From the IMG/VR virus record IMGVR_UViG_3300045988_173726, positions 64,001 through 128,000 of that record: DNA of 64,000 nucleotides; one strand, written 5' to 3'. The DNA is from a virus. The translations under genes and the position numbers were made by a program. The number at the start of each line of letters is the position of its first letter. The stretch's first letter is position 1. Of this stretch, positions 31,147 to 57,866 are shown piece after piece. The notes beneath the pieces are model-generated. The model searched no databases and had not been told where the DNA came from. It saw nothing but the letters and a program-made list of their open reading frames with translations.

Positions 31147-31202
31147 GCCAAGTACACAGCACAGTTTAACAGGTATAAAGATTTAAGGAGAGGTAGGGTA
31201 AA

Positions 31203-31480
31203 CTAGCAGTTTCCAACAATGTAGAAGAAACAGGAATTATTCTCGACTTTATACATTTTATTTAGTAAGCAGTCCTATACAGATGTATTCAACGCAAGAC
31301 AGTTGAGCATCTCCCTTTAGGGCTAAGTTTATCAGAAGCCTTGACAACAATTTTCATTGTGTGGCTACGGTTGAAATGAGATGAGTTAGGGTGGAATAGG
31401 TTAACCGTAAGACCTTGAGTTGCAAAACTCTAAAATTGAGCTAGAGTATGGATTTTTCAAGTTTCGTATTTCTAGTTACG
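31203..31480 (+). mobile_element. ORF-less mini copy (left-end block fused to right-end block) of the TnpB-like element
   Basis: 31203-31268 matches the left-end blocks at 31511 and 36309 (CAGTTTCCAACAATG..GGAATTATT..). 31269-31480 matches the post-stop blocks of both full copies and ends at the same CTAGTTACGG. Confidence 0.7.
31269..31480 (+). ncRNA. orphan copy of the omega-RNA-like structured block
   Basis: About 212 nt, homologous to 32966-33173 and 37748-37963. Carries the invariant TCAAC-GCAAGACA-GTTGA hairpin. Confidence 0.45.
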
Positions 31481-31618
31481 GTATCAGTCGAAGGACAAGT
31501 AGGAAGAGTAATCGACAGTTTCTAACAATGCGGAAGAAGCAGGAATTATTTCTCGATTTTCTATGTTGTTTTAGTTAGCTAAGGTTATTTCATTAGGGGC
31601 GCAGGGTGGTGAGGTGTA

Positions 31619-32950
31619 ATGCAGAAACTAAAGTTGACTACAGTAGCACAGCTACATGAGGGGAGTAACCGATGTTTAATTGAATATATGGAATCTTCTC
31701 GTAGCGATTACGGAAAAGCATTGCGAGAGACTTTCTATGCAATCAAGCGAGGAGGAGTAAATAAGTCAAAGTACAACACATATCTCCAGTATAAATACGG
31801 AATTTCTAGTCGGACTGCAAATTCTATCATTTATGACGCACAAGGACGCTTTAATGCTCTTAAGGAGTTAAAAGGGCATGAAAGGAAGCAGTTGGAGAGA
31901 AAAATTAAGTATATTGAGAGTGTAGTTATTCCAAAGCTAGTTGAGAAAAGGAATCAGAACTCAGCTAAAATTCAAGACGGAGCATATGTGTTGCTGGGTC
32001 AACAAAGGAATCTAAGGTTAAGGGTAGTTGCGAAGAAGTCAAGGTTAAACAGGCTGAAACAGAAGCTAAAGGCACTAGAGTACCAATTAAAATCTGGAAT
32101 GTTAAAGCTTTGTTTCGGTACAAAACGGCTACTTAAACAAGACCATGATAAGTTTGTTGAACAGCGAGACAGCCAAATGACTCTCATAGGAGCTAAAGAG
32201 AAACCAGCGTGTAATCCAGTTTTACAGTTGACTTATAATCGAAGGAGTAATCAGTTTTTGATTCGGTTGCGGAAAGATTTCGGAGGGTATAAGTCAGCAA
32301 GAGGTGAGGATAGATATGCTTATGGAAAGGTTTATTTCAATCTTCATAAGACACAGCTTGTATCAATTTTGAGGTATAAGACTAGTCCTCTATCTTATAG
32401 AATAATCAAGATGAATGGCAGATATTACCTATATTGTATATTTGAGTTTCAAGTAAGTGCTGGCGATATAGTTACTCGTTCTTCTTACGGAACGATAGGG
32501 CTGGACTTTAACAAAGGTTTTGTGACCTTATCAGAGACGAATCAATACGGTCATCTAGTAAAAACACAGTTTATGCCATATCGGTTTAAGTCTGGAAACA
32601 AGACAAATACAGACCTACAAGCAATAGCAAATCATGTAGCTAAACTAGCATTGGTAACAGGAAAAGATGTTTGTATAGAGAATCTTGATTTTAGAGCAAA
32701 GAAAGCTAAGACAGAATCAAAGATAGGAAAGAAATACAACGAGATGCTTCATTCGTTAGCCTATCGGGAGTTTAGTGACGCGATGAAAAGTGTAGCATAT
32801 AGAAACAGAGTTAGATTAAATAAAGTAAATCCAGCGTGGACATCATGGTTAGCAGATAGGATTTATTGTAAGTCTATGAAGTTGAATATACATACTGGAG
32901 CTTCATATGTAATAGCAAGGCGTGGACAGGGTTATAAAGACGCTGTGTAA
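31619..32950 (+). CDS. TnpB/IS605-OrfB-like protein lacking the zinc ribbon and the RuvC-III Asp
   Basis: IGLDFNKG (RuvC-I), VCIENLDF (RuvC-II) and VNPAWTSW (the V.P.YTSQ block). These are followed directly by LADRIYCKSMKLNIHTGASYVIARRG, with no CxxC..CxxC and no D.NAA. Confidence 0.75.
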   Translation: MQKLKLTTVAQLHEGSNRCLIEYMESSRSDYGKALRETFYAIKRGGVNKSKYNTYLQYKYGISSRTANSIIYDAQGRFNALKELKGHERKQLERKIKYIESVVIPKLVEKRNQNSAKIQDGAYVLLGQQRNLRLRVVAKKSRLNRLKQKLKALEYQLKSGMLKLCFGTKRLLKQDHDKFVEQRDSQMTLIGAKEKPACNPVLQLTYNRRSNQFLIRLRKDFGGYKSARGEDRYAYGKVYFNLHKTQLVSILRYKTSPLSYRIIKMNGRYYLYCIFEFQVSAGDIVTRSSYGTIGLDFNKGFVTLSETNQYGHLVKTQFMPYRFKSGNKTNTDLQAIANHVAKLALVTGKDVCIENLDFRAKKAKTESKIGKKYNEMLHSLAYREFSDAMKSVAYRNRVRLNKVNPAWTSWLADRIYCKSMKLNIHTGASYVIARRGQGYKDAV

Positions 32951-33173
32951 GGAGCATCTAACAATCAATCCTATACAGATGTATTCAACGCAAGACAGTT
33001 GAGCATTTCCCTGTAGGATTAAGTTTACTAGAAACTCTGATAACAATTCTCATTGTGTGGCTACGGTCGAAATGGAATGAGTCTGGATGGAATAGGTTAG
33101 CCGTAAGACCTTGGGTTGGAAAACTCTAAAATTGAGCTAGAAATGTGGATTTCTTAGCTATTTTCTAGTTACG
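32951..33173 (+). ncRNA. omega-RNA-like conserved block downstream of TnpB-like copy 1
   Basis: Conserved in three copies and ends abruptly at CTAGTTACGG. Hairpins show compensatory differences between copies. Confidence 0.5.
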
Positions 33174-33346
33174 GCTAACGCCTGCGGAGCGAGAAGAGGT
33201 TTTACGGGGCTTAGAAGCATAAAGCCCCGTAGACGCACGAGACGGCGTTTTACGGGCGGTTAGAGGTTTAAGCCTAAGGAATAGCCTAGGGGCAGTTAGG
33301 CGGCTTGGAGAGGCGTGTAGCGCGTCAGAGAGGGATGAGGGACGAT

Positions 33347-33649
33347 ATGGGAGAGCAGAATAGAAATCCGCTTGAGGGGTTACTTGAGGTACGGCGTGAG
33401 GTAAGAAAGCTTTGTCCAGAGCTTTTTCCGAAAGAGGAGCGAGTAGCCTACGGGGTAGTAGGCGAGACAGGAGAGCCTTCGGTGGCGCTTCAAAAGTTTA
33501 ATAAGCTATTGGCGGCACAGACGGGCAGTAAGACAGGAAAGAAGCGAAAGACAGCGGTAAAAGTCCCAGCAAAGCAAGGAAAGGTCGGAGACGGCGAATT
33601 TACGGGAACGAGTTTATTTGAGGCGATGAAACGAGGGGGAGTGCTATGA
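33347..33649 (+). CDS. small basic hypothetical protein
   Basis: ATG 33347 follows GAGGGA. The stop overlaps the next ATG (ATGA). Confidence 0.5.
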   Translation: MGEQNRNPLEGLLEVRREVRKLCPELFPKEERVAYGVVGETGEPSVALQKFNKLLAAQTGSKTGKKRKTAVKVPAKQGKVGDGEFTGTSLFEAMKRGGVL

Positions 33650-34065
33650 GTAAGCGCGTGTATGCGAAAGCCGAGACGGTACGAGTTCTAGATAGGTGGG
33701 ACGAAGAAGCGGAAGCTTCACTACAACTGCTTGCGTCCCCGAAGGCAATCGTAAGTCGTGTGAGGACAAATCCGAGAGGGTATTTCAAGCGTGTTAAGTA
33801 TGTTGTTCGACACGAAGGGAATGAATTAACTGAGGTTATAGTGAATTGTGAGGATTTTGATGCAGAGTCACCTTTCTTTGTCGGGACAGAGGAGATGATG
33901 TTTGTGTTTTCAACGCGGGGCAGTATACCTTGTACTTCTTTTACCGTCAAAATTAGCTTTGCAACAGGTTCTATCAAGATATTCGGAACTATAGAAGCGA
34001 TAGGATACTTGACAGACTGGCTTCATGTTCCATTTACAGATTTTAAGCTTGTGAGATACAGGTAA
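33646..34065 (+). CDS. family-A paralog A1
   Basis: RVYAKA, VSRVRTNPRG, IKIFG and the C-terminal DWLHVPFTDFKL. RBS GGGGGAG. Confidence 0.65.
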   Translation: MSKRVYAKAETVRVLDRWDEEAEASLQLLASPKAIVSRVRTNPRGYFKRVKYVVRHEGNELTEVIVNCEDFDAESPFFVGTEEMMFVFSTRGSIPCTSFTVKISFATGSIKIFGTIEAIGYLTDWLHVPFTDFKLVRYR

Positions 34066-34083
34066 GAGAATGGGGGTTTTGTT

Positions 34084-34494
34084 GTGAAAGTATATGCGAA
34101 AGCAGTGAAATTGAGAGTACCAGACAGGTGTGACGGGGATATACATGTCACGCTTCAAATGGTTAAGCCTCTAAATGCGGTTTTAAGTAGAATAATGACA
34201 ACGCCGAACGGACGGTTAGTTCGTTCAGAGTATGTTGTTCGGAACGAGCAGGGAGTAACAACTCTTAGAGCAAATTTTGGTGAGTTTTGCGCAGAATCAC
34301 CTGTACCTGACGGCACAGAGCGGATAAGGCTTAGATTTTTAGTACGAGGTGGAGCAATACACACCTCAATTCGTGTCAATATCAATCTTTTGACTGGCTC
34401 TATAGATATATTTGGAAAGTATGGGACAGTCGCAGACTTGACTGACTGGCTTCATGTGTCGCCTAGCGATTTTAAGATTGTGAGAGCCAAGTAA
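34084..34494 (+). CDS. family-A paralog A2
   Basis: KVYAKA, LSRIMTTPNG, IDIFGK, DWLHVSPSDFKI. Confidence 0.65.
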   Translation: MKVYAKAVKLRVPDRCDGDIHVTLQMVKPLNAVLSRIMTTPNGRLVRSEYVVRNEQGVTTLRANFGEFCAESPVPDGTERIRLRFLVRGGAIHTSIRVNINLLTGSIDIFGKYGTVADLTDWLHVSPSDFKIVRAK

Positions 34495-34516
34495 GAAAAG
34501 TTAGCGGGGGAGGTTT

Positions 34517-34933
34517 ATGAGTGGTCGAGTTTACGCGAGAGCAGGGAAGATGCGGGTCAGTCCGTTTCGAGATAGCGACAATGATACTGTACGGGCTACA
34601 CTTCAACGGGTAATATATCCGAGGTCATTTCTAAGTCGGTTAAGAACAAATCCGAAGGCGGAGTTTGTTAGCGCTGAATGCGTCATTCGTAATAGAGCAG
34701 AGAGTATACCGCTACGGTTTGAGGATTTGGTAGCTTTTCATTTCCCCATAGGAACGGTAGGTGTGACTTTAAGGTTTAAGCCGCGCTATAGTTTCGGAGA
34801 CAGTCTACTCTCTATTAAGACTAACCTTATCACAGACGATATAGAGGATATAGAGATAGTCGGGAAAAGAGAAGCGGTTGTAGACTTGTTAGAGTGGTTA
34901 CATGTGCCGCTGTCAGAGTTTCGATTGAAGTAG
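34517..34933 (+). CDS. family-A paralog A3
   Basis: RVYARA, LSRLRTNPKA, IEIVGK, EWLHVPLSEFRL. Confidence 0.65.
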   Translation: MSGRVYARAGKMRVSPFRDSDNDTVRATLQRVIYPRSFLSRLRTNPKAEFVSAECVIRNRAESIPLRFEDLVAFHFPIGTVGVTLRFKPRYSFGDSLLSIKTNLITDDIEDIEIVGKREAVVDLLEWLHVPLSEFRLK

Positions 34934-34946
34934 TTTGGGGTGGTCT

Positions 34947-35402
34947 ATGAGTAAGAAGAGTAAGAAACAGTACGCGAGAGCTGAAGTAATAAGTCCATTT
35001 CTGGGGAGCGGTGGCGATGTGATAAAAGCTTGTCTTAGTATAGTTGTTTCTCCTATGGCATTTGTACGTCGGGTAATAGCGAATAAAATTGGTAAGCTAG
35101 CGGGTGTTGAGTACATTGCTTCTCGTGAAGCTGGCTATCTTCCGATACTGGCAGAAGATTTCCTAGCCAATGCGGATTTACCTAGTAACACGAAATGTGT
35201 AAGGCTTAAGTTCATGTTGCATAGTAGTTTATCCAGCAGTCTATCGGGTGGTATATTCTTAGTATTTGTTAGCTTCCGAGTTGGTCGTGTAGAAATACTC
35301 GGAAAGATGAATACAGTAGTAGCCCTAGTCGATTGGCTTAATGTTCCGTTTTCGGAATTTGAATTTATCCTTCCGAGTTCAGATTCATTGTGTTTAGGTT
35401 AG
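34947..35402 (+). CDS. family-A paralog A4
   Basis: QYARAE, VRRVIANKIG, VEILGK, DWLNVPFSEFEF. I prefer the ATG at 34947. Confidence 0.6.
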   Translation: MSKKSKKQYARAEVISPFLGSGGDVIKACLSIVVSPMAFVRRVIANKIGKLAGVEYIASREAGYLPILAEDFLANADLPSNTKCVRLKFMLHSSLSSSLSGGIFLVFVSFRVGRVEILGKMNTVVALVDWLNVPFSEFEFILPSSDSLCLG

Positions 35403-35415
35403 GGGGTTTGTGGAT

Positions 35416-35838
35416 ATGAGTGGCAGGAAGTATTTGGATGTGGGCCATTTGAAGATAAGTAGTTCTGGTGGTATGCGAGGTCTATTGCATGTAACTTGCA
35501 AGACTAGCGCTTCTCTAAAGGCACTTGCGAGTAGAGTTTGCACGAATCCGCATAGTAGATTAACGGAAGCCTATTATTTAGTGGCGGGAAGTAGTGGGCG
35601 GCTTAATATCGAGGAGCTAAGTGTGTTGGACTTAAAAGCCTTTCGTTTACCCGAGGTGGCTGTTGGGCTTAGACTTGATTTTTCATCAAAAGGTAAGCTA
35701 GAAAGCAGGATAGGCGGCGAGGAGTTTTCAGTTTGGATTAACTCTGTGGAGAGTAAGCTGGAGATAATTGGCAAGAGAAACGCCGTTATAGAGTTGTGCG
35801 CGTGGCTTAATGCGCCGCTTTCAGATTTAATTAAGTAA
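35416..35838 (+). CDS. family-A paralog A5
   Basis: ASRVCTNPHS, LEIIGKRNAV, AWLNAPLSDL. Confidence 0.6.
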   Translation: MSGRKYLDVGHLKISSSGGMRGLLHVTCKTSASLKALASRVCTNPHSRLTEAYYLVAGSSGRLNIEELSVLDLKAFRLPEVAVGLRLDFSSKGKLESRIGGEEFSVWINSVESKLEIIGKRNAVIELCAWLNAPLSDLIK

Positions 35839-35861
35839 TTCTGTGTTTAGGAGGTGAGATT

Positions 35862-36257
35862 GTGGGCGAGAGACGGTATCTGGACGATAGTTCCGTAAAG
35901 ATAGCGTGGGTTGGAGATAAATTAGACGCAAAGTTTAGAGTTGTCTCGTCATTAAAGGCGGTTGCGAGCCGTGTTAGGACAAACCCAAAAGGTAAGTTAG
36001 TGGAGGCTTCATGCGTAGTAGCTAGTGGCGGCAGTGTAAGATATGTTATGCTAAGGGTAGCGGATTTAGTTGCCTTCCGTTTACCTGTTGGGACTACTAG
36101 CGTTTTGCTTATTTTTGAGTCGAAAGGTAGTAGGCGCGGGGAAACATTTTCCATTATAATTGACTTAGCGGGGAAGTCGTTAGAGATAATTGGTAACAGA
36201 AACGAAGTAGTAGATTTGTGTTCGTGGCTTCATGAGCCGATTTGGGGGAATATATGA
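35862..36257 (+). CDS. family-A paralog A6
   Basis: GTG start 8 nt after AGGAGG. ASRVRTNPKG, LEIIGNRNEV, SWLHEPIWGNI. Confidence 0.6.
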   Translation: MGERRYLDDSSVKIAWVGDKLDAKFRVVSSLKAVASRVRTNPKGKLVEASCVVASGGSVRYVMLRVADLVAFRLPVGTTSVLLIFESKGSRRGETFSIIIDLAGKSLEIIGNRNEVVDLCSWLHEPIWGNI

Positions 36258-36310
36258 CAGAACGAAGAAGCAGTGACAAGAGTTCCGTAAAGATAGCGCG
36301 GATAAATTAG
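36254..36310 (+). pseudogene. 5' remnant (18 codons) of a family-A paralog, truncated by TnpB-like element copy 2
   Basis: ATGA overlap with the A6 stop. MTERRSSDKSSVKIARIN resembles the A6 N-terminus MGERRYLDDSSVKIAW. Its TAG stop lies at the element's left boundary. Confidence 0.6.
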
Positions 36311-36400
36311 CCGTTTCCAACGATGCAGAGAAGCGGGAATTACGTCTCAATTTTCTATGTTTTAGTTAAGGTTTTCATTAGGGGCATAGGGTGAATTGTA

Positions 36401-37732
36401 ATGCAGAAGCTAAAGTTGACTATAGTAACACAGCTACACGAGGGAAGTAACCGAGGTTTAATTGAATATATGGAAGCTTCCCGTAGGGATTATGGGAAAG
36501 CAATGCGAGAGACTTTCTATGCAATTAAGCGTGGTGGTTTTGATAAGTCAAAGTACAACACATGCCTTCAACATAGACATGGAATTGTTAGTCGAACTGC
36601 AAATGCTATCATTTCTGACGCTCAAGGAAGATTTTATGCTCTTAAGGCGCTGAAAGAGTGTGAGAGGAAGCAGTTAGAGCGAAAGATTAAATATCTTGAG
36701 AGTACAGTTATTCCTAAGTTAGTTGAGCAAAGGAATCAGAATTCAACTAAGCTTCAAGACGGAGTATTTGTTTCGTTGATTCAACAAAGGAATCTAAGGT
36801 TAAGGGTAGTTTCAAAGAAGTCTAAACTAAATAGGTTGAAGCAGAAGCTTGAAGTGTTGAAGTATCAACTAGAAATAGGAAAGTTAAAGCTTTGTTTTGG
36901 AACGAAAAGGTTGTTAAAGCAAGACCAAGAGAAGTTTATTGAGCAAAGGGATAGTCAGATGACTTTCATAGGAGCTAAGGGGGAGCTAGCATGTAATCAC
37001 AACTTGCAGTTGCGCTACAATCGAAGAAGTAATCAGTTTTTGGTTCGATTGCGTAAAGATTTCGGAGGGTATAAGTTAGTTAAAGGCGAAGATAGGTATG
37101 TTTACGGCAAAGTTTATTTCAATCATCACAAGGGACAGCTTGTTTCGATTCTGAGGTCTAAAACTAGTCCTTTATCTTATAGGATAGTCAAAAGGAAAGG
37201 TAGGTATTATTTACACTGTATATTTGAGTTTCAAGTAGGGAACAGCGGTATAGTTACTCGTTCTTCTTACGGAACGGTAGGATTAGACTTTAACAAAGGG
37301 TTTGTGACCTTATCAGAGACGAATCAGTACGGACATTTAGTTAAAACAGAGTTTATGCCTTATTGTTTCGAGTCTGGAAGTAAAACAAAAACAGACTTAC
37401 AGGATGTAGCTAATCATGTAGTTAAACTAGCTTTACGAACAGGTAAGGATATTTGTATAGAGAATCTTGATTTTAGAAGAACAAAAGCAAAGACAGAAAC
37501 AAAGATAGGAAAGAAATACAATGCTATGCTTCATTCTTTAGCCTATCGAGAGTTCAGTGACGCGATGGGGAGTGTATGTTATAGGAACAGTGTTGGATTG
37601 CACAAAGTAAATCCAGCGTGGACATCATGGTTTGCAGAGAGGATTTATTGTAAACCTATGAAGTTGAACATACATACTGGGGCTTCGTATGTAATAGCAA
37701 GGCGTGGGCAAGGGTATAAGGATGCTATATAA
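36401..37732 (+). CDS. TnpB/IS605-OrfB-like protein lacking the zinc ribbon and the RuvC-III Asp (copy 2)
   Basis: Same length and motifs as copy 1: VGLDFNKG, ICIENLDF, VNPAWTSW, NIHTGASYVIARRG. I counted 20 differences in the first 101 residues. Confidence 0.75.
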   Translation: MQKLKLTIVTQLHEGSNRGLIEYMEASRRDYGKAMRETFYAIKRGGFDKSKYNTCLQHRHGIVSRTANAIISDAQGRFYALKALKECERKQLERKIKYLESTVIPKLVEQRNQNSTKLQDGVFVSLIQQRNLRLRVVSKKSKLNRLKQKLEVLKYQLEIGKLKLCFGTKRLLKQDQEKFIEQRDSQMTFIGAKGELACNHNLQLRYNRRSNQFLVRLRKDFGGYKLVKGEDRYVYGKVYFNHHKGQLVSILRSKTSPLSYRIVKRKGRYYLHCIFEFQVGNSGIVTRSSYGTVGLDFNKGFVTLSETNQYGHLVKTEFMPYCFESGSKTKTDLQDVANHVVKLALRTGKDICIENLDFRRTKAKTETKIGKKYNAMLHSLAYREFSDAMGSVCYRNSVGLHKVNPAWTSWFAERIYCKPMKLNIHTGASYVIARRGQGYKDAI

Positions 37733-37963
37733 ATAGCATTTAACAATCAGTCCTACACAGATGTATCAACGCAAGACAGTTGAGCATTTCCCTGTAGGAC
37801 AAAGTTTAATTAGAAGCTCTGGCAATAATTCTCATTGTGTGGCTCTACGGTCGAAATGGGATGAGTTAGGGTGGAATAGGTTAACCGTAAGACCTTGAGT
37901 TGAAAAACTCTAAAATTGAGCTGGGAATATTGATTTATTAAATTTCGTATTTTCTAGTTACGG
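37733..37963 (+). ncRNA. omega-RNA-like conserved block downstream of TnpB-like copy 2
   Basis: Homologous to 32951-33173 and 31269-31480, with the same terminal CTAGTTACGG. Confidence 0.5.
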
Positions 37964-37967
37964 TTCA

Positions 37968-38000
37968 TGGCTTTATGTGCCGATTTGGAGGAGTGTGTGA
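37968..38000 (+). pseudogene. 3' remnant (10 codons) of a family-A paralog
   Basis: TGG CTT TAT GTG CCG ATT TGG AGG AGT GTG TGA reads WLYVPIWRSV*, which is the family-A C-terminal signature. Its TGA overlaps the ATG of the next paralog. Confidence 0.55.
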
Positions 38001-38671
38001 TGGAAAAAAGAAGAAGCAGTGGAAAGATTAAAGTTAAAAGGGACGCTAATGGTCGTTTAGTTCAGACTTTTGACGCCCAAGTTAAAGTTAAGAGGGACGC
38101 TAATGGTGATTTAGTGCAGATTGGCGGCGATAAAGAAACCGTGCGGGTTAAGGCATCTAGTAGGCACGGTATAGGCACTAGGAATTTGGCAGGGGCAGGT
38201 TTGGGTGTTCATCATCTTGTTAAGGACGCGAGCGGTCGTTTAATTGTGTGTGATAATATTGGTAGTGTTCTTAGGGGTAATCTTGGGGGTAAAAAGATAC
38301 ATTCTATAGATATAGACGGTCGGGTTCAGTTATGGAGAGGTAACGGAGTTTGTAGTGTATCATTTGGGATACTGATGGAGCCAAGAGAGTTTTTGGAGGG
38401 ATTGGTACAGTATCCGAATTGCACGAGAGCTGAAGTAGCTCTGATGTATCCGAGTTTTAAGTCTACAAAGTTTACTGCTAATTATAGCTTAGATAAGCTG
38501 ATTAGAAATGGGCTTTCAGAGGACACTCGTGGTATGATTCTTTATTTTAGTCGCAATAGGGAAGTAAACTATAACCTTACAGCGATGGTAAGCTTTATGG
38601 ATAGGATACTGACGCTTACAGGGGATAATGATTATGTGGCGGCGTTGGTTCATTGGCTTAGTGCGAGGTGA
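38000..38671 (+). CDS. family-A-related paralog A7 with an N-terminal repeat extension
   Basis: ATG 38000 follows GGAGGAG. N-terminus MEKRRSSGK. Repeats VKVKRDANGRLVQ, VKVKRDANGDLVQ and VKDASGRLIV. C-terminus LTLTGDNDYVAALVHWLSAR. Confidence 0.55.
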   Translation: MEKRRSSGKIKVKRDANGRLVQTFDAQVKVKRDANGDLVQIGGDKETVRVKASSRHGIGTRNLAGAGLGVHHLVKDASGRLIVCDNIGSVLRGNLGGKKIHSIDIDGRVQLWRGNGVCSVSFGILMEPREFLEGLVQYPNCTRAEVALMYPSFKSTKFTANYSLDKLIRNGLSEDTRGMILYFSRNREVNYNLTAMVSFMDRILTLTGDNDYVAALVHWLSAR

Positions 38672-39024
38672 CTTGTGTGAATAGACCGATGGTAAAGCTC
38701 TTACATGTCGAGCAGAATCACGGCGGGGTTGATTGGAGTAGGGTGCTTCACTATAAGATTCTGATAAACACATTAACCTTCGCGAAGATTCTTGTAAAGA
38801 AGAATTTAGATGAAATAGAGTTTATACAGTGTGTGGAGTATGTAAAAGACGAGTGTAGCGGAGCTTGGAAGAGTGAGTGGAGTCGTATTAAGCCAGACGA
38901 GTTCTTAAAGCTTAAGTATCGGCGTAAAGAACGCAAGGAGTATATTATCAACTTCACGAGCTGTAATGTGGCGGTAATTCGTTGTTGGCGGCGGGAAGCG
39001 GATATTGTAGAGGTTAGTTTATAG
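38668..39024 (+). CDS. hypothetical small protein, possibly a diverged family-A member
   Basis: It occupies a paralog slot in the array. The start is uncertain (GTG 38668 or ATG 38689) and similarity to family A is weak. Confidence 0.4.
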   Translation: MTCVNRPMVKLLHVEQNHGGVDWSRVLHYKILINTLTFAKILVKKNLDEIEFIQCVEYVKDECSGAWKSEWSRIKPDEFLKLKYRRKERKEYIINFTSCNVAVIRCWRREADIVEVSL

Positions 39025-39042
39025 CGTTTATAGGGGGAGTTT

Positions 39043-39372
39043 ATGCGGAAAGCGCGAATTAAGCAAGTTGAAGTAGGGAAGTGGAAGCTAACGGAGTCGG
39101 TAGAGAGTTTTCTTCGCTTTGCGCTTAGGGAAAGCAACTTTAGTAACGCATTATTCAAGGTTACTGTAGGAGATGGGGAGCAGTGGAAACAGGTTTCGGT
39201 AGTCGAGGCAGTTAGCTTTGCGAAGCAGACGCTACGGTTTATCTGTATTGAGTATGGCGACCCGTCTACGATGCGAAGTTGTAGTATGTGTATAGACGCA
39301 GGGAGCAGGCTTTTAACGCTTTTTGGTGACGAGGAGCTTATCGGATTTGTTCTTTCCGAGTGCGGGGTGTGA
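39043..39372 (+). CDS. diverged family-A-like paralog A9
   Basis: RBS GGGGGAG. The C-terminal LLTLFGDEELIGFVLSE resembles the I.IFGK....L..WL block. Confidence 0.5.
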   Translation: MRKARIKQVEVGKWKLTESVESFLRFALRESNFSNALFKVTVGDGEQWKQVSVVEAVSFAKQTLRFICIEYGDPSTMRSCSMCIDAGSRLLTLFGDEELIGFVLSECGV

Positions 39373-39803
39373 GAGTGGCGAAAAGAAAGCGTCTTGAAGT
39401 TATTAAGCGTTATATTAGTCCAGACCTGTGTTATGCAGAGGTAACTTGTGAGCTAGGCTGTAAGCCTTCTGCAATTTGTAGCTGGGCGCTTAAGACCTCT
39501 GGGGTTGCAGAGTATGTGGAAATAATGGCAGAGCATAAATTAGGCTTGTGGGGGCGAGTAACACAGTCGGTTCTTGAGCGTGATGTTTTAATAGGGGGCA
39601 GAGAGTTCATGTTCTCTTTTGGTACGAGACCTGATGACACTTTTCTTACCCTTTTTCTTGACTGTAGGTATAGGCAAGTGCGTATTTGTGGAATACCGGA
39701 GTTGATTTTCTCGTTTATAAAGGCATTTAATGGCGCGATAGTGATAAAAAGCCTTTTATATGAGTATGCAAAGGCTGTCTTACAGCACGAAGAGGTGGAA
39801 TGA
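39360..39803 (+). CDS. diverged family-A-like paralog A10
   Basis: QVRICGIPELIFSFIKAFN resembles LEIIGKRNAVIELCAWLN. An alternative start is the GTG at 39375. Confidence 0.45.
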   Translation: MRGVRVAKRKRLEVIKRYISPDLCYAEVTCELGCKPSAICSWALKTSGVAEYVEIMAEHKLGLWGRVTQSVLERDVLIGGREFMFSFGTRPDDTFLTLFLDCRYRQVRICGIPELIFSFIKAFNGAIVIKSLLYEYAKAVLQHEEVE

Positions 39804-40189
39804 TGAATGGCAGAGTTTTAATTAGCGAAGAGCCGCTAGAGGTGACGCCTATTAGTTGGGATACCCGCGCTATCTTTCGTACTGTGGCTACACCGAGGAA
39901 GATATTAGAGAGGATTCTAAGCATGCCGCAGAGCGATAGTTATAGTGCAAACTTGATTTTGGCAGACGGTTCATTGAATCCGATAAGCGAAGCGGCTCTT
40001 AGGTCTTTGAAGTTTCCGAGAGGCACAGTTGGAGTAGAGTTTTCCCATTCTTATGTGATTAGTGGTGGTTGGGTGACAATTTGGATAGCGATTAAATTTC
40101 GTGAAAAGACGCTTACTTTGCAGGGTGATGCGTGTGGTGTGAGTTCGGCAGTAACTTGGCTTTTAACAACAGAAGAGACGCGGGAGTAG
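39800..40189 (+). CDS. family-A paralog A11
   Basis: ATGATG start overlaps the upstream stop. Pattern LERILSMPQS, KFPRGTVGVEF, LTLQGDACGVSSAVTWLL. Confidence 0.55.
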   Translation: MMNGRVLISEEPLEVTPISWDTRAIFRTVATPRKILERILSMPQSDSYSANLILADGSLNPISEAALRSLKFPRGTVGVEFSHSYVISGGWVTIWIAIKFREKTLTLQGDACGVSSAVTWLLTTEETRE

Positions 40190-56488: not shown

Positions 56489-57676
56489 ATGATTAGAGCT
56501 TACAAGACAGAAATCAATCCAACTAAGTCTCAAATTGAGTTAATTCATAAGACGTTTGGGTGTGCCCGCTATATTTACAATCAATATGTGAATGAGAACC
56601 TAGAAAATCTTGCATTAGGGAAAGACTTTGTTTCTGCCTTTAGCTATTCTAAACGAGTGAATAATGACCCTAACACTCCTTATTGGTTGAAAGAAGTTCC
56701 AAGCAAGGCAATCAAGCAAGCTTTGATTTGTGCAGACAGAGCTTTTAAAGATTACTTTTCTAAACGTAGAGGGAAACCTAAGTTTAAAAAGAAATGGAAT
56801 AATGATGAGAGTTTCTATCTCATCGGCACGATTAAAGTGGAACGCCATCGGATATTTGTCCCTAAATTGAAATGGCTTCGCTTGAAGGAATTTGGCTACA
56901 TTCCTAAGAATATCAGCTCTGTAACGATTTCCATGAAGAATGGGCGTTATTACATTTCCTGCTTATGTAAAGAGGAGAAAGACGAGCGGATTCCTTTGTC
57001 TGACTCCGCTATGGGCATTGATTTTGGGTTGAAAGACCAATTTATTACAGGAAATAGGACAATTCCTTCCATCAATCGCTCTTTACGGATTAGGAAATTA
57101 GAGAAATGTTTACGAAGAGAACAGAGGAAGTTGTCTCGCAAAATTGAAGCTAACATGGTTGATAAGGTCTATGTTCAATCAGGCTCTAAGAAGGGGCAAC
57201 TTAAATCATATAAGTGGGTAAAGCATTTATCTGAGTGTAAGAACGTTCAGAAACAGAAGTTAAAAGTGGCACGAATTCATGAGCGCTTAACTCGGATTCG
57301 GACAGATTACAACCGAAAATCTTTATATTCTCTAGTGTTAGAACGAAAACCAAGTTCTATCACCATTGAAGACTTATCAGTTCGCAATCTCATGAAGAAT
57401 CGGCACTTGAGTGTAGCTATCATGAAGGCACAGTGGTATCAATCTCGGCTTTATTTGGAAAATCTCTGTGACAGGTTAGGGATAGAGCTTAGAGTAGCCG
57501 ATAAGTTTTATCCTTCTAGCAAAATCTGTTCAACTTGTGGCTTAAAGTATCAAGACTTGAAGCTAAAGGAACGCTTTTGGACTTGTTCTAATTGTGGCTG
57601 TGAGCATGATAGGGATAGAAATGCGGCTATCAATTTAGAACAATGCAAAAACTATACTGTTTTGACAGCAGTTTAA
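56489..57676 (+). CDS. tnpB: canonical TnpB (IS200/IS605-IS607 family RNA-guided endonuclease)
   Basis: MIRAYKTEINPTKSQ...YIYNQ N-terminus. GIDFGLKD (RuvC-I), ITIEDLSVRNL (RuvC-II), CSTCG...CSNCG zinc ribbon, DRDRNAAINL (RuvC-III). Confidence 0.9.
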   Translation: MIRAYKTEINPTKSQIELIHKTFGCARYIYNQYVNENLENLALGKDFVSAFSYSKRVNNDPNTPYWLKEVPSKAIKQALICADRAFKDYFSKRRGKPKFKKKWNNDESFYLIGTIKVERHRIFVPKLKWLRLKEFGYIPKNISSVTISMKNGRYYISCLCKEEKDERIPLSDSAMGIDFGLKDQFITGNRTIPSINRSLRIRKLEKCLRREQRKLSRKIEANMVDKVYVQSGSKKGQLKSYKWVKHLSECKNVQKQKLKVARIHERLTRIRTDYNRKSLYSLVLERKPSSITIEDLSVRNLMKNRHLSVAIMKAQWYQSRLYLENLCDRLGIELRVADKFYPSSKICSTCGLKYQDLKLKERFWTCSNCGCEHDRDRNAAINLEQCKNYTVLTAV

Positions 57677-57866
57677 ATACCGTCACTACCGTGGGTTACA
57701 CGGAAAGTTAAGCTTGTGGACTGTTCTATCAAATGGGAGTAGTCTTTATATCTCGATACAAAAAAAACAAAACCAGACAGGATGAAGCAAGAAGAATTTC
57801 TAAAATATTTTATTAGAAAGGTCATGAAATATACGTTTGGGTATATTTTGTGTAACAGGCAGCAAG

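What the first reader, a model, noticed from the sequence alone, without database searches (positions are those of the whole stretch)
36254..38002. TnpB-like copy 2 occupies the body of a family-A paralog, and its putative guide coincides with the family's most conserved DNA block
Just upstream of the element, an ORF coupled to the A6 stop (ATGA) reads MTERRSSDKSSVKIARIN. It ends at a TAG located at the element's left boundary. Compare the N-termini of A6 (MGERRYLDDSSVKIAW) and A7 (MEKRRSSGKIKVK). Just after the right boundary (37963), TGG CTT TAT GTG CCG ATT TGG AGG AGT GTG TGA reads WLYVPIWRSV*. That is the family-A C-terminal signature (A6 ends WLHEPIWGNI*), and the TGA overlaps the ATG of A7. 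So about 18 N-terminal and 10 C-terminal codons of a paralog flank the 1.65 kb element, and the roughly 110 middle codons are missing. As a result, the first 20 nt after the boundary (TTCATGGCTTTATGTGCCGA) overlap the TGGCTT.ATG..CCG block found at the 3' end of A1-A6. It is speculation that the RNA could address other paralogs, for example in regulation or homing within the array.
Basis: partly seen in the sequence, partly recalled or inferred. Interest (0 to 1): 0.65.

Follow-up and report, generated by a model that had tools for sequence, protein, structure and literature searches.

The report
TnpB insertion element inside gene remnants
A small mobile element carrying an RNA-guided nuclease gene (TnpB) and its guide RNA sits between the leftover head and tail of a small gene in a roughly 265 kb circular element from human mouth metagenomes (some relatives are labelled as phage in public records); this is an ordinary kind of insertion, and its guide matches the unbroken version of that one gene, not the neighbouring gene copies.

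Summary
The sequence observation holds. An 18-codon ORF (36254-36310) follows A6, and SWLYVPIWRSV* (37965-38000) follows the element and overlaps the A7 start. Both flanks resemble A6 far more than shuffled sequence does (0 of 2000 shuffles each).

The element is a TnpB gene (36401-37732) followed by an omega-RNA (Rfam RF03065, 203 bits) that ends at 37963. The protein fits the published TnpB clade RIIIr-4: the third catalytic Asp is His and there is no zinc finger.

The "extra paralog" reading is only partly right:
- In every related locus examined, one A6 gene abuts A7 directly.
- None of 120 A6-like protein clusters has the hybrid N-terminus.
- The remnant looks like one lineage's original A6. 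An intact A6 appears to have been added upstream by recombination with another lineage.

The 20 nt after the element do lie in the family's most conserved block. They match only A6 (3 mismatches). A1-A5 differ at 6 or more positions, which is chance level. A6 orthologues in relatives match with 1-3 mismatches.

Copy 1 likewise replaces the body of a 96-aa gene. I rate this a new member of a known kind, of modest interest.

The parts
35862..36257 (+). A6, the intact 131-aa family-A gene. It ends WLHEPIWGNI, a rare variant of the usual WLY[VM]P.
   Evidence: The WLHEP ending is seen only here and in L106, the other genome that carries copy 2.
36221..36240 (+). The only near match to the copy-2 guide inside the window: TTCGTGGCTTCATGAGCCGA, with 3 mismatches (positions 4, 11, 15), preceded by TTTGTG.
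36254..36301 (+). N-terminal gene remnant of 16 codons (MTERRSSDKSSVKIAR). Codons 1-8 are A7-like and codons 10-16 are A6-like. The ORF runs on to a TAG at 36308-36310 inside the element's left end.
36302..36400 (+). Left end of copy 2 (ATAAATTAG-CCGTTTCCAACGATG...). The boundary is uncertain within about 36299-36311.
   Evidence: nhmmer alignment of 25 left ends. No significant hairpin was found.
36401..37732 (+). tnpB-like gene of 443 aa. RuvC-I is D296, RuvC-II is E354, H425 stands in place of the RuvC-III Asp, and there is no zinc finger.
37750..37963 (+). omega-RNA scaffold (Rfam RF03065, IS605-orfB-I). The element's right end is ...TTCTAGTTACGG.
   Evidence: 202.8 bits, gathering score 94.2
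37964..37983 (+). Putative guide, TTCATGGCTTTATGTGCCGA, read from flanking DNA. It overlaps the conserved family-A block.
   Evidence: That it is transcribed into the RNA is inferred from what is known of TnpB omega-RNAs.
37965..38000 (+). C-terminal gene remnant SWLYVPIWRSV*. Its stop overlaps the A7 start, as at the A6/A7 junction of relatives.
38000..38671 (+). A7, 223 aa. Gene callers extend it to 37967, giving 234 aa.
31197..31481 (+). Orphan mini-element: a left end plus an omega-RNA (RF03065, 189 bits), with no protein gene.
31507..33174 (+). Copy 1 of the element (tnpB 31619-32950, omega-RNA to 33174). With the mini-element it replaces the body of a 96-aa gene that is intact in relatives.

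Best explanation
Copy 2 (about 36302-37963) is a non-autonomous TnpB insertion element. It consists of a left end, a tnpB gene of the RIIIr-4 clade (Asp-Glu-His site, no zinc finger), and an omega-RNA whose scaffold ends at 37963. Its guide is therefore read from the next roughly 20 nt of flanking DNA.

The element lies in the wreck of an A6-type gene. Sixteen head codons and eleven tail codons remain, and about 104 codons are gone. The tail remnant and its overlap with A7 form the ordinary A6/A7 junction seen in all relatives. I infer that the wreck is the original A6 of one parental lineage.

I also infer that the intact A6 upstream, together with the first 8 A7-like codons, came from a second lineage. 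The likely route is an unequal crossover between the similar N-terminal codons of A7 and A6. That would restore a working A6 while keeping the element.

The missing gene body most likely went through recombination between two same-orientation element copies inserted at two sites in the gene. Such an event is visible elsewhere in this lineage.

Because the right junction falls in the A6 tail, the guide equals the conserved WL(Y/H)xP block. Its near-perfect targets are uninterrupted A6 alleles in related genomes. The resident A6 carries 3 mismatches, and the other paralogs are not matched. Whether the RNA-protein complex actually cuts those alleles, which would favour retention or spread of the element as shown for other TnpBs, is inferred and not shown.
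For: Identity of the element:
- Three RF03065 hits (179-203 bits against a gathering score of 94), each ending at TTACGG.
- About 90 related right ends with the same terminus and unrelated flanks.
- Partial NF040570 TnpB match at E = 1.6e-8.
- 1431 representative clusters match. D296, E354 and H425 are conserved at 98-100% in 98 diverse members, and proteins end without a zinc finger. This fits the description of clade RIIIr-4 in PMC10691335.

Remnants: shuffle tests and alignment to L003.

No extra paralog: relatives, and 120 A6-like clusters without the hybrid N-terminus.

Two-lineage origin: the left copy of the 62-nt A6-end/A7-start junction is closest to the L107 allele (54/62). In the first 38 nt, which encode the A6 tail, the right copy is closest to the L004 allele (36/38). 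L106, from another sample, has the same A6 tail, remnant and copy-2 left junction on a different A6 5' half.

Gene-body replacement is general in this lineage:
- Copy 1 replaces about 215 nt of a 96-aa gene.
- L005 lacks two paralogs where an element sits.
- The L052 mini-element equals the window's mini-element left part joined to copy 1's right part and flank, which is the product expected from recombination between the two copies.

Guide matches.
Against: - The order of events (insertion first, or duplication first) cannot be told from the sequence.
- No genome was found with two elements in one A6 gene, so the two-insertion route to the deletion is by analogy only.
- No transposase (TnpA) gene was noticed; only about half of the window's larger ORFs were scanned and no search for TnpA was made. 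The left end shows no significant hairpin, so how the element inserts is unknown.
- The motif next to targets (TAM) is only loosely inferred, as G/T-G before the target.
- Nuclease activity of the Asp-Glu-His site is untested.
- The AlphaFold model of the protein was poor (pLDDT 53).
- The right junction is directly read in only one assembly, although 4 contigs carry the 234-aa ORF that starts 4 nt after it.
Confidence: 0.7

Rival explanations
1. The array once held a seventh full paralog (Ax) between A6 and A7, made by tandem duplication. The element inserted into it, the body was later deleted, and the guide lets the RNA act on other paralogs for regulation or homing within the array.
For: The head and tail remnants are real. 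The array varies in copy number among relatives. The guide overlaps the most conserved block.
Against: No relative has a gene between A6 and A7. No intact hybrid-head gene occurs in 120 clusters. The two junction copies resemble different alleles rather than each other (42/62 ungapped, 78% over 54 nt). The guide has 6 or more mismatches to A1-A5, which is chance level.
Confidence: 0.15
2. The arrangement is an assembly artefact. The source contig's ends fall inside copy 2, so the element and its flanks may have been joined wrongly.
For: The contig ends at window 36727 and starts at 36673, inside tnpB. The genome holds other copies of the element.
Against: The ends overlap by 55 nt, as expected for a circular contig. 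The copies are only about 81-85% identical, so they are hard to confuse. An independent sample (L106) shows the same A6-remnant-left end-tnpB junction at near identity. Four contigs carry the exact 234-aa ORF that begins 4 nt after the right end.
Confidence: 0.03
3. The protein is a domesticated, non-cutting RNA-guided DNA binder (TldR-like) that uses the flank-derived guide to control A6 or A7 expression.
For: The canonical third catalytic Asp and the zinc finger are absent. The guide lies at the A6-tail/A7-start junction.
Against: Asp, Glu and His are 98-100% conserved over a very diverse family, which suggests an active site (the same argument is made in PMC10691335). The element is multi-copy, with conserved ends and about 60 different flanks, so it is mobile. 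The guide's own locus is preceded by the element end TTACGG, not by the TTGTG seen at empty sites.
Confidence: 0.07

Closest known systems
TnpB clade RIIIr-4 (Altae-Tran et al. 2023, PNAS; PMC10691335)
   Same: RuvC-III Asp replaced by His, no C4 zinc finger, about 440 aa, and found in virus-like genomes.
   Different: Placement rests on the two diagnostic features and not on a tree. The paper does not describe this oral roughly 265 kb host element, or the link to RF03065, in the passages I read.
IS200/IS605-family TnpB elements with omega-RNA (for example ISDra2)
   Same: The tnpB gene is followed by a structured RNA whose scaffold ends at the right end, with the guide read from the flank. 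There are many copies with conserved ends and varied flanks.
   Different: No TnpA gene was noticed in the window, though not all ORFs were scanned. The left end has no clear hairpin. Several insertions are accompanied by loss of target DNA (2 nt to over 1 kb) rather than clean insertion.
TnpB/IscB-assisted element retention by cutting the empty site
   Same: The guide matches uninterrupted alleles (1-3 mismatches) next to a constant 5' motif. The tract shared between window and L106 ends about 250 nt upstream of the element.
   Different: The presumed targets would be alleles in other, co-resident genomes. Nothing here shows cutting.
TldR (TnpB-like nuclease-dead repressors; recalled from my own knowledge)
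   Same: Lacks the canonical RuvC-III Asp and the zinc-finger region.
   Different: The Asp-Glu-His site is strictly conserved, and the element is mobile and multi-copy.

Membership tests
TnpB (RNA-guided nuclease of IS200/IS605/IS607 elements) | Sequence match to curated TnpB models | tested here: inconclusive
   NF040570 matches at E = 1.6e-8 but scores 34 bits against a cutoff of 100, covering only model positions 272-346. There is no Pfam OrfB_IS605 hit. PHROG 506 (transposase) matches at 7e-6.
TnpB (RNA-guided nuclease of IS200/IS605/IS607 elements) | RuvC-I Asp and RuvC-II Glu in their usual motifs (G-x-D, x-E-x-L) and an NPxxTS motif | tested here: met
   GLD296FN, IE354NL and NPAWTS are present. 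They are conserved at 98-100%, 100% and about 90% in 98 diverse representatives.
TnpB (RNA-guided nuclease of IS200/IS605/IS607 elements) | An omega-RNA encoded at the 3' end of the gene and running to the element's right end | tested here: met
   RF03065 hits of 179-203 bits after both genes and in the mini-element.
TnpB clade RIIIr-4 | RuvC-III Asp replaced by His | tested here: met
   H425 is at 98% in 98 representatives. The feature is as stated in PMC10691335.
[quoted passage not shown]
   Only 15 residues lie between NPAWTS and H425, with no CxxC pairs. The family ends at about residue 443.
TnpB clade RIIIr-4 | Phylogenetic placement inside the clade | not tested
IS200/IS605 insertion sequence | Y1 TnpA transposase in the element or genome | tested here: inconclusive
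   Neither element copy has room for a second gene, so no TnpA lies inside the elements. About half of the window's larger ORFs were scanned against Pfam and none hit a transposase other than the canonical TnpB. No search aimed at TnpA was made, and the rest of the roughly 265 kb genome was not examined.
IS200/IS605 insertion sequence | Subterminal hairpins at both ends | tested here: inconclusive
   The right end is highly structured as the omega-RNA. The left-end folds are no better than shuffles (z = 0.15, 0.21 and -0.98).
IS200/IS605 insertion sequence | Insertion 3' of a short conserved target motif, with no target loss | tested here: inconclusive
   Left flanks end mostly in GG. Empty sites end in G/T-G before the guide match. 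Several sites have lost 2 nt to over 1 kb of target.
Family A (small paralogous proteins 33646-36257) | Any match to a described protein family or fold | tested here: not met
   No Pfam, NCBIfam or PHROG family, and no PDB sequence match. The AlphaFold model has pLDDT 89, but the best fold hits have E >= 0.003 and TM <= 0.44.
TldR (nuclease-dead TnpB-like repressor) | Catalytic residues lost and the locus immobile | tested here: not met
   The Asp-Glu-His site is conserved. The element is multi-copy with varied flanks.

The most novel reading that the evidence does not exclude
In these oral roughly 265 kb genomes, the RIIIr-4 TnpB elements may persist and spread between co-resident relatives by RNA-guided cutting of uninterrupted alleles. 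Repair would copy in the element and replace the gene body. Genomes would keep a working gene copy only if it carries mismatches to the guide, as with the rare WLHEP tail of A6, which is seen only in the two genomes that carry copy 2.
Probability: 0.15. Interest if true: 0.7.

Novelty: new member of a known kind. Interest (0 to 1): 0.33.

Why it matters
Mostly this tidies up the finding. The insertion is real, and its guide lies in a conserved block only because that is where the right junction fell. The suggested cross-talk with other paralogs is not supported.

Three smaller points may interest TnpB workers:
- The Rfam RNA family RF03065 is here tied to the His-variant, zinc-finger-less TnpB clade.
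- These elements repeatedly sit where gene bodies have been lost.
- The only intact A6 alleles that differ from the guide at position 15 as well as at 4 and 11 are those that share a genome with it.

These points make a natural test case for whether TnpB guides shape competition between related mobile genomes.

Tried and rejected
- Megablast of 33000-40000 against phage and plasmid collections found nothing.
- IMG/VR scans with A7, with the TnpB protein and with a right-end pattern gave 0, 3 and 4 loci, too few to use alone.
- The exact 223-aa A7 is not on record.
- The AlphaFold model of the TnpB-like protein was too poor to search with (pLDDT 53).
- phmmer of the protein against PDB found nothing relevant.
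- I considered that GATAAATTAG before the element is target-derived, because A6 has the same 10-mer 7 nt downstream of the aligned position. It equally fits the element's left-end consensus, so the left boundary is left uncertain.
- I tried to define the target-adjacent motif from 8 empty sites. The third base before the guide match is G in all 8, and 5 of the 8 end in G/T-G.
- A hairpin at the left end was looked for and not found.
- Candidate tRNA targets in L063 and L099 were not confirmed by ARAGORN.
Full report
WHAT IS THERE

The window is part of a 264,603-bp circular contig from a human metagenome. The contig's two ends overlap by 55 nt inside copy 2, at window 36673-36727. One of the relatives comes from a record labelled human oral metagenome. 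All genes lie on the + strand and GC skew is about 0.3. Relatives are 240-275 kb contigs, some of them labelled Caudoviricetes in public records.

After the A6 stop, an ORF at 36254-36310 reads MTERRSSDKSSVKIARIN*. After position 37963, the sequence reads (S)WLYVPIWRSV* at 37965-38000, and its TGA overlaps the A7 start at 38000.

THE ELEMENT

Rfam finds three copies of the IS605-orfB-I RNA (RF03065) well above threshold:
- 37750-37967, after copy 2;
- 32968-33178, after copy 1;
- 31272-31485, an orphan with no gene.

The alignment to the model closes its last helix on UUACGG and leaves the next four bases unpaired. A scan of public metagenome contigs with a right-end pattern brought in 85 loci. 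In about 90 right ends the terminus is ...TTCTAGTTACGG, followed by unrelated DNA. The right boundary at 37963 is therefore firm, and the following bases are where a TnpB guide would be read.

The 443-aa protein matches curated TnpB models only in part (NF040570, E = 1.6e-8, below cutoff), and no Pfam model hits. It belongs to a large family: 4,496 close homologues and 1,431 representative clusters. In 98 diverse members D296, E354 and H425 are 98-100% conserved, and the proteins end about 18 residues after the His, without a zinc finger. A published survey describes exactly this combination as the major TnpB clade RIIIr-4. That clade is over-represented in viruses, and its authors judge it likely to be active because the altered site is conserved (PMC10691335). 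I did not place the protein on a tree.

THE FLANKS

Both flanks resemble A6 far beyond chance, and A6 is their best match anywhere in the window. Two details change the reading.
- Codons 1-8 of the left remnant align to the N-terminus of A7, not of A6. Only codons 10-16 are A6-like.
- The last nine bases before the conserved left-end core (ATAAATTAG) fit the element family's own left-end consensus. The left boundary is therefore uncertain by about ten bases.

RELATIVES

A7 homologues led to loci from other samples. In every one that covers the site, a single 131-aa A6 gene abuts A7 with overlapping stop and start, and nothing lies between them. A search with a reconstructed hybrid gene found 120 A6-like clusters, and none has the hybrid head. 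The tail remnant (WLYVP) is of the type common in relatives, while the window's intact A6 ends with the rare WLHEP.

The 62-nt stretch "A6 tail plus next gene's first codons" occurs on both sides of the element. The two copies resemble different alleles:
- the left copy is closest to L107 (54/62);
- in the first 38 nt, which encode the A6 tail, the right copy is closest to L004 (36/38).

A second sample (L106) has the same A6 tail, remnant, left end and tnpB at near identity, joined to a different A6 5' half.

My reading, which is inference, is that the remnant is the original A6 of one lineage. An unequal crossover between the similar first codons of A7 (from an intact genome) and of A6 (from the disrupted genome) then placed an intact A6 upstream. 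A duplication that came first and was followed by insertion cannot be excluded.

THE MISSING BODY

Loss of target DNA at these elements is common in this lineage.
- Copy 1 and the mini-element replace a 96-aa gene that is intact in relatives. Codons 3-12 survive between the two elements, the last about 13 codons survive after copy 1, and about 215 nt are gone.
- In L005 an element occupies the place of two paralogs.
- Smaller losses of 2-13 nt are seen at three other sites.
- In L052 a mini-element consists of the window's mini-element left part joined to copy 1's right part and flank. This is what recombination between the two same-orientation copies would leave.

By analogy, I think the A6 body was lost by recombination between two copies inserted at two sites in the gene. 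This step is inferred.

THE GUIDE

The block TGGCTTCATGTnCCG is the most conserved 20-nt window in the A1-A6 codon alignment, and the 20 nt after 37963 overlap it. The matches are as follows:
- A6 has 3 mismatches (positions 4, 11, 15).
- A1-A5 have 6-7 mismatches or more. Shuffled windows give about 20 sites at 7 or fewer mismatches.
- A6 orthologues in relatives have 1-3 mismatches, and each is preceded by (T/C)(T/C)TGTG.

The overlap with a conserved block follows simply from where the right junction lies. The natural targets would be uninterrupted A6 alleles, as in the known TnpB retention model (my own knowledge, not read here). Cutting is not shown, the target-adjacent motif is only loosely inferred, and no RNA data could be used.

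FAMILY A

No family or fold match was found for family A, despite a confident model. Its function remains unknown.

VERDICT

This is an ordinary TnpB element insertion with gene remnants, a new member of a known kind. The more novel possibility is guide-driven competition between related genomes, with a mismatched resident copy. It is not excluded, but it is untested.

Noticed in passing
window 56489-57793: A canonical TnpB (Pfam OrfB_IS605, HTH and Cas12f1-like TNB domains) at 56489-57676 is followed by a RAGATH-18 RNA at 57713-57793. This is a second, unrelated TnpB/RNA pair in the same window.
   Followed up: partly
window 31197-33194: An orphan mini-element and copy 1 lie 25-35 nt apart, depending on where copy 1's left end is placed. 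Together they replace a 96-aa gene that is intact in relatives (L004, L005, L007, L011, L027). In L052 a single mini-element looks like the recombination product of the two.
   Followed up: yes
L005 8036-9593; also L006, L028, L097: Another element of the family has a frameshifted tnpB and a different 5' end. It sits in the family-A array in place of two paralogs, and its guide equals the ribosome-binding site and start of A6.
   Followed up: partly
L101 1434-3090: An element is inserted right at the start codon of an A3-like family-A gene. The array and the adjacent 96-aa gene hold at least six of about 25 distinct insertion sites seen.
   Followed up: partly
L105 291-2693; L063; L099: L105 has a 13-gene tRNA array with omega-RNA mini-elements between the tRNAs. 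The flanks after the element in L063 and L099 look like tRNA 3' ends, but ARAGORN finds no intact tRNA there.
   Followed up: partly
window 38000-40189: A7 and the next small ORFs end in a motif like L.L.GD...V..L..WL, resembling the family-A tail. The paralog array may therefore extend beyond A6. A7 also contains an internal 54-nt tandem repeat (38028-38120).
   Followed up: no
window 35862-36257 and L106 5001-5405: The rare WLHEP tail of A6 occurs only in the two genomes that carry copy 2, among about 120 A6-like clusters. This could be hitch-hiking or escape from the guide.
   Followed up: partly
window 1-64000: Every ORF of 150 aa or more lies on the + strand, apart from two that overlap + strand ORFs, and GC skew is about 0.3 throughout. 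The window also encodes a Tad-type secretion ATPase, ParA-like and actin-like partition proteins, a UvrD helicase and a 1216-aa NlpC/P60 protein. No clear phage structural genes were found among those scanned, so the host element may be a plasmid-like or phage-plasmid replicon.
   Followed up: partly
about 90 right ends in L014-L105: The first base after the element's right end is T in most copies. This may be part of the target preference or of the RNA.
   Followed up: no
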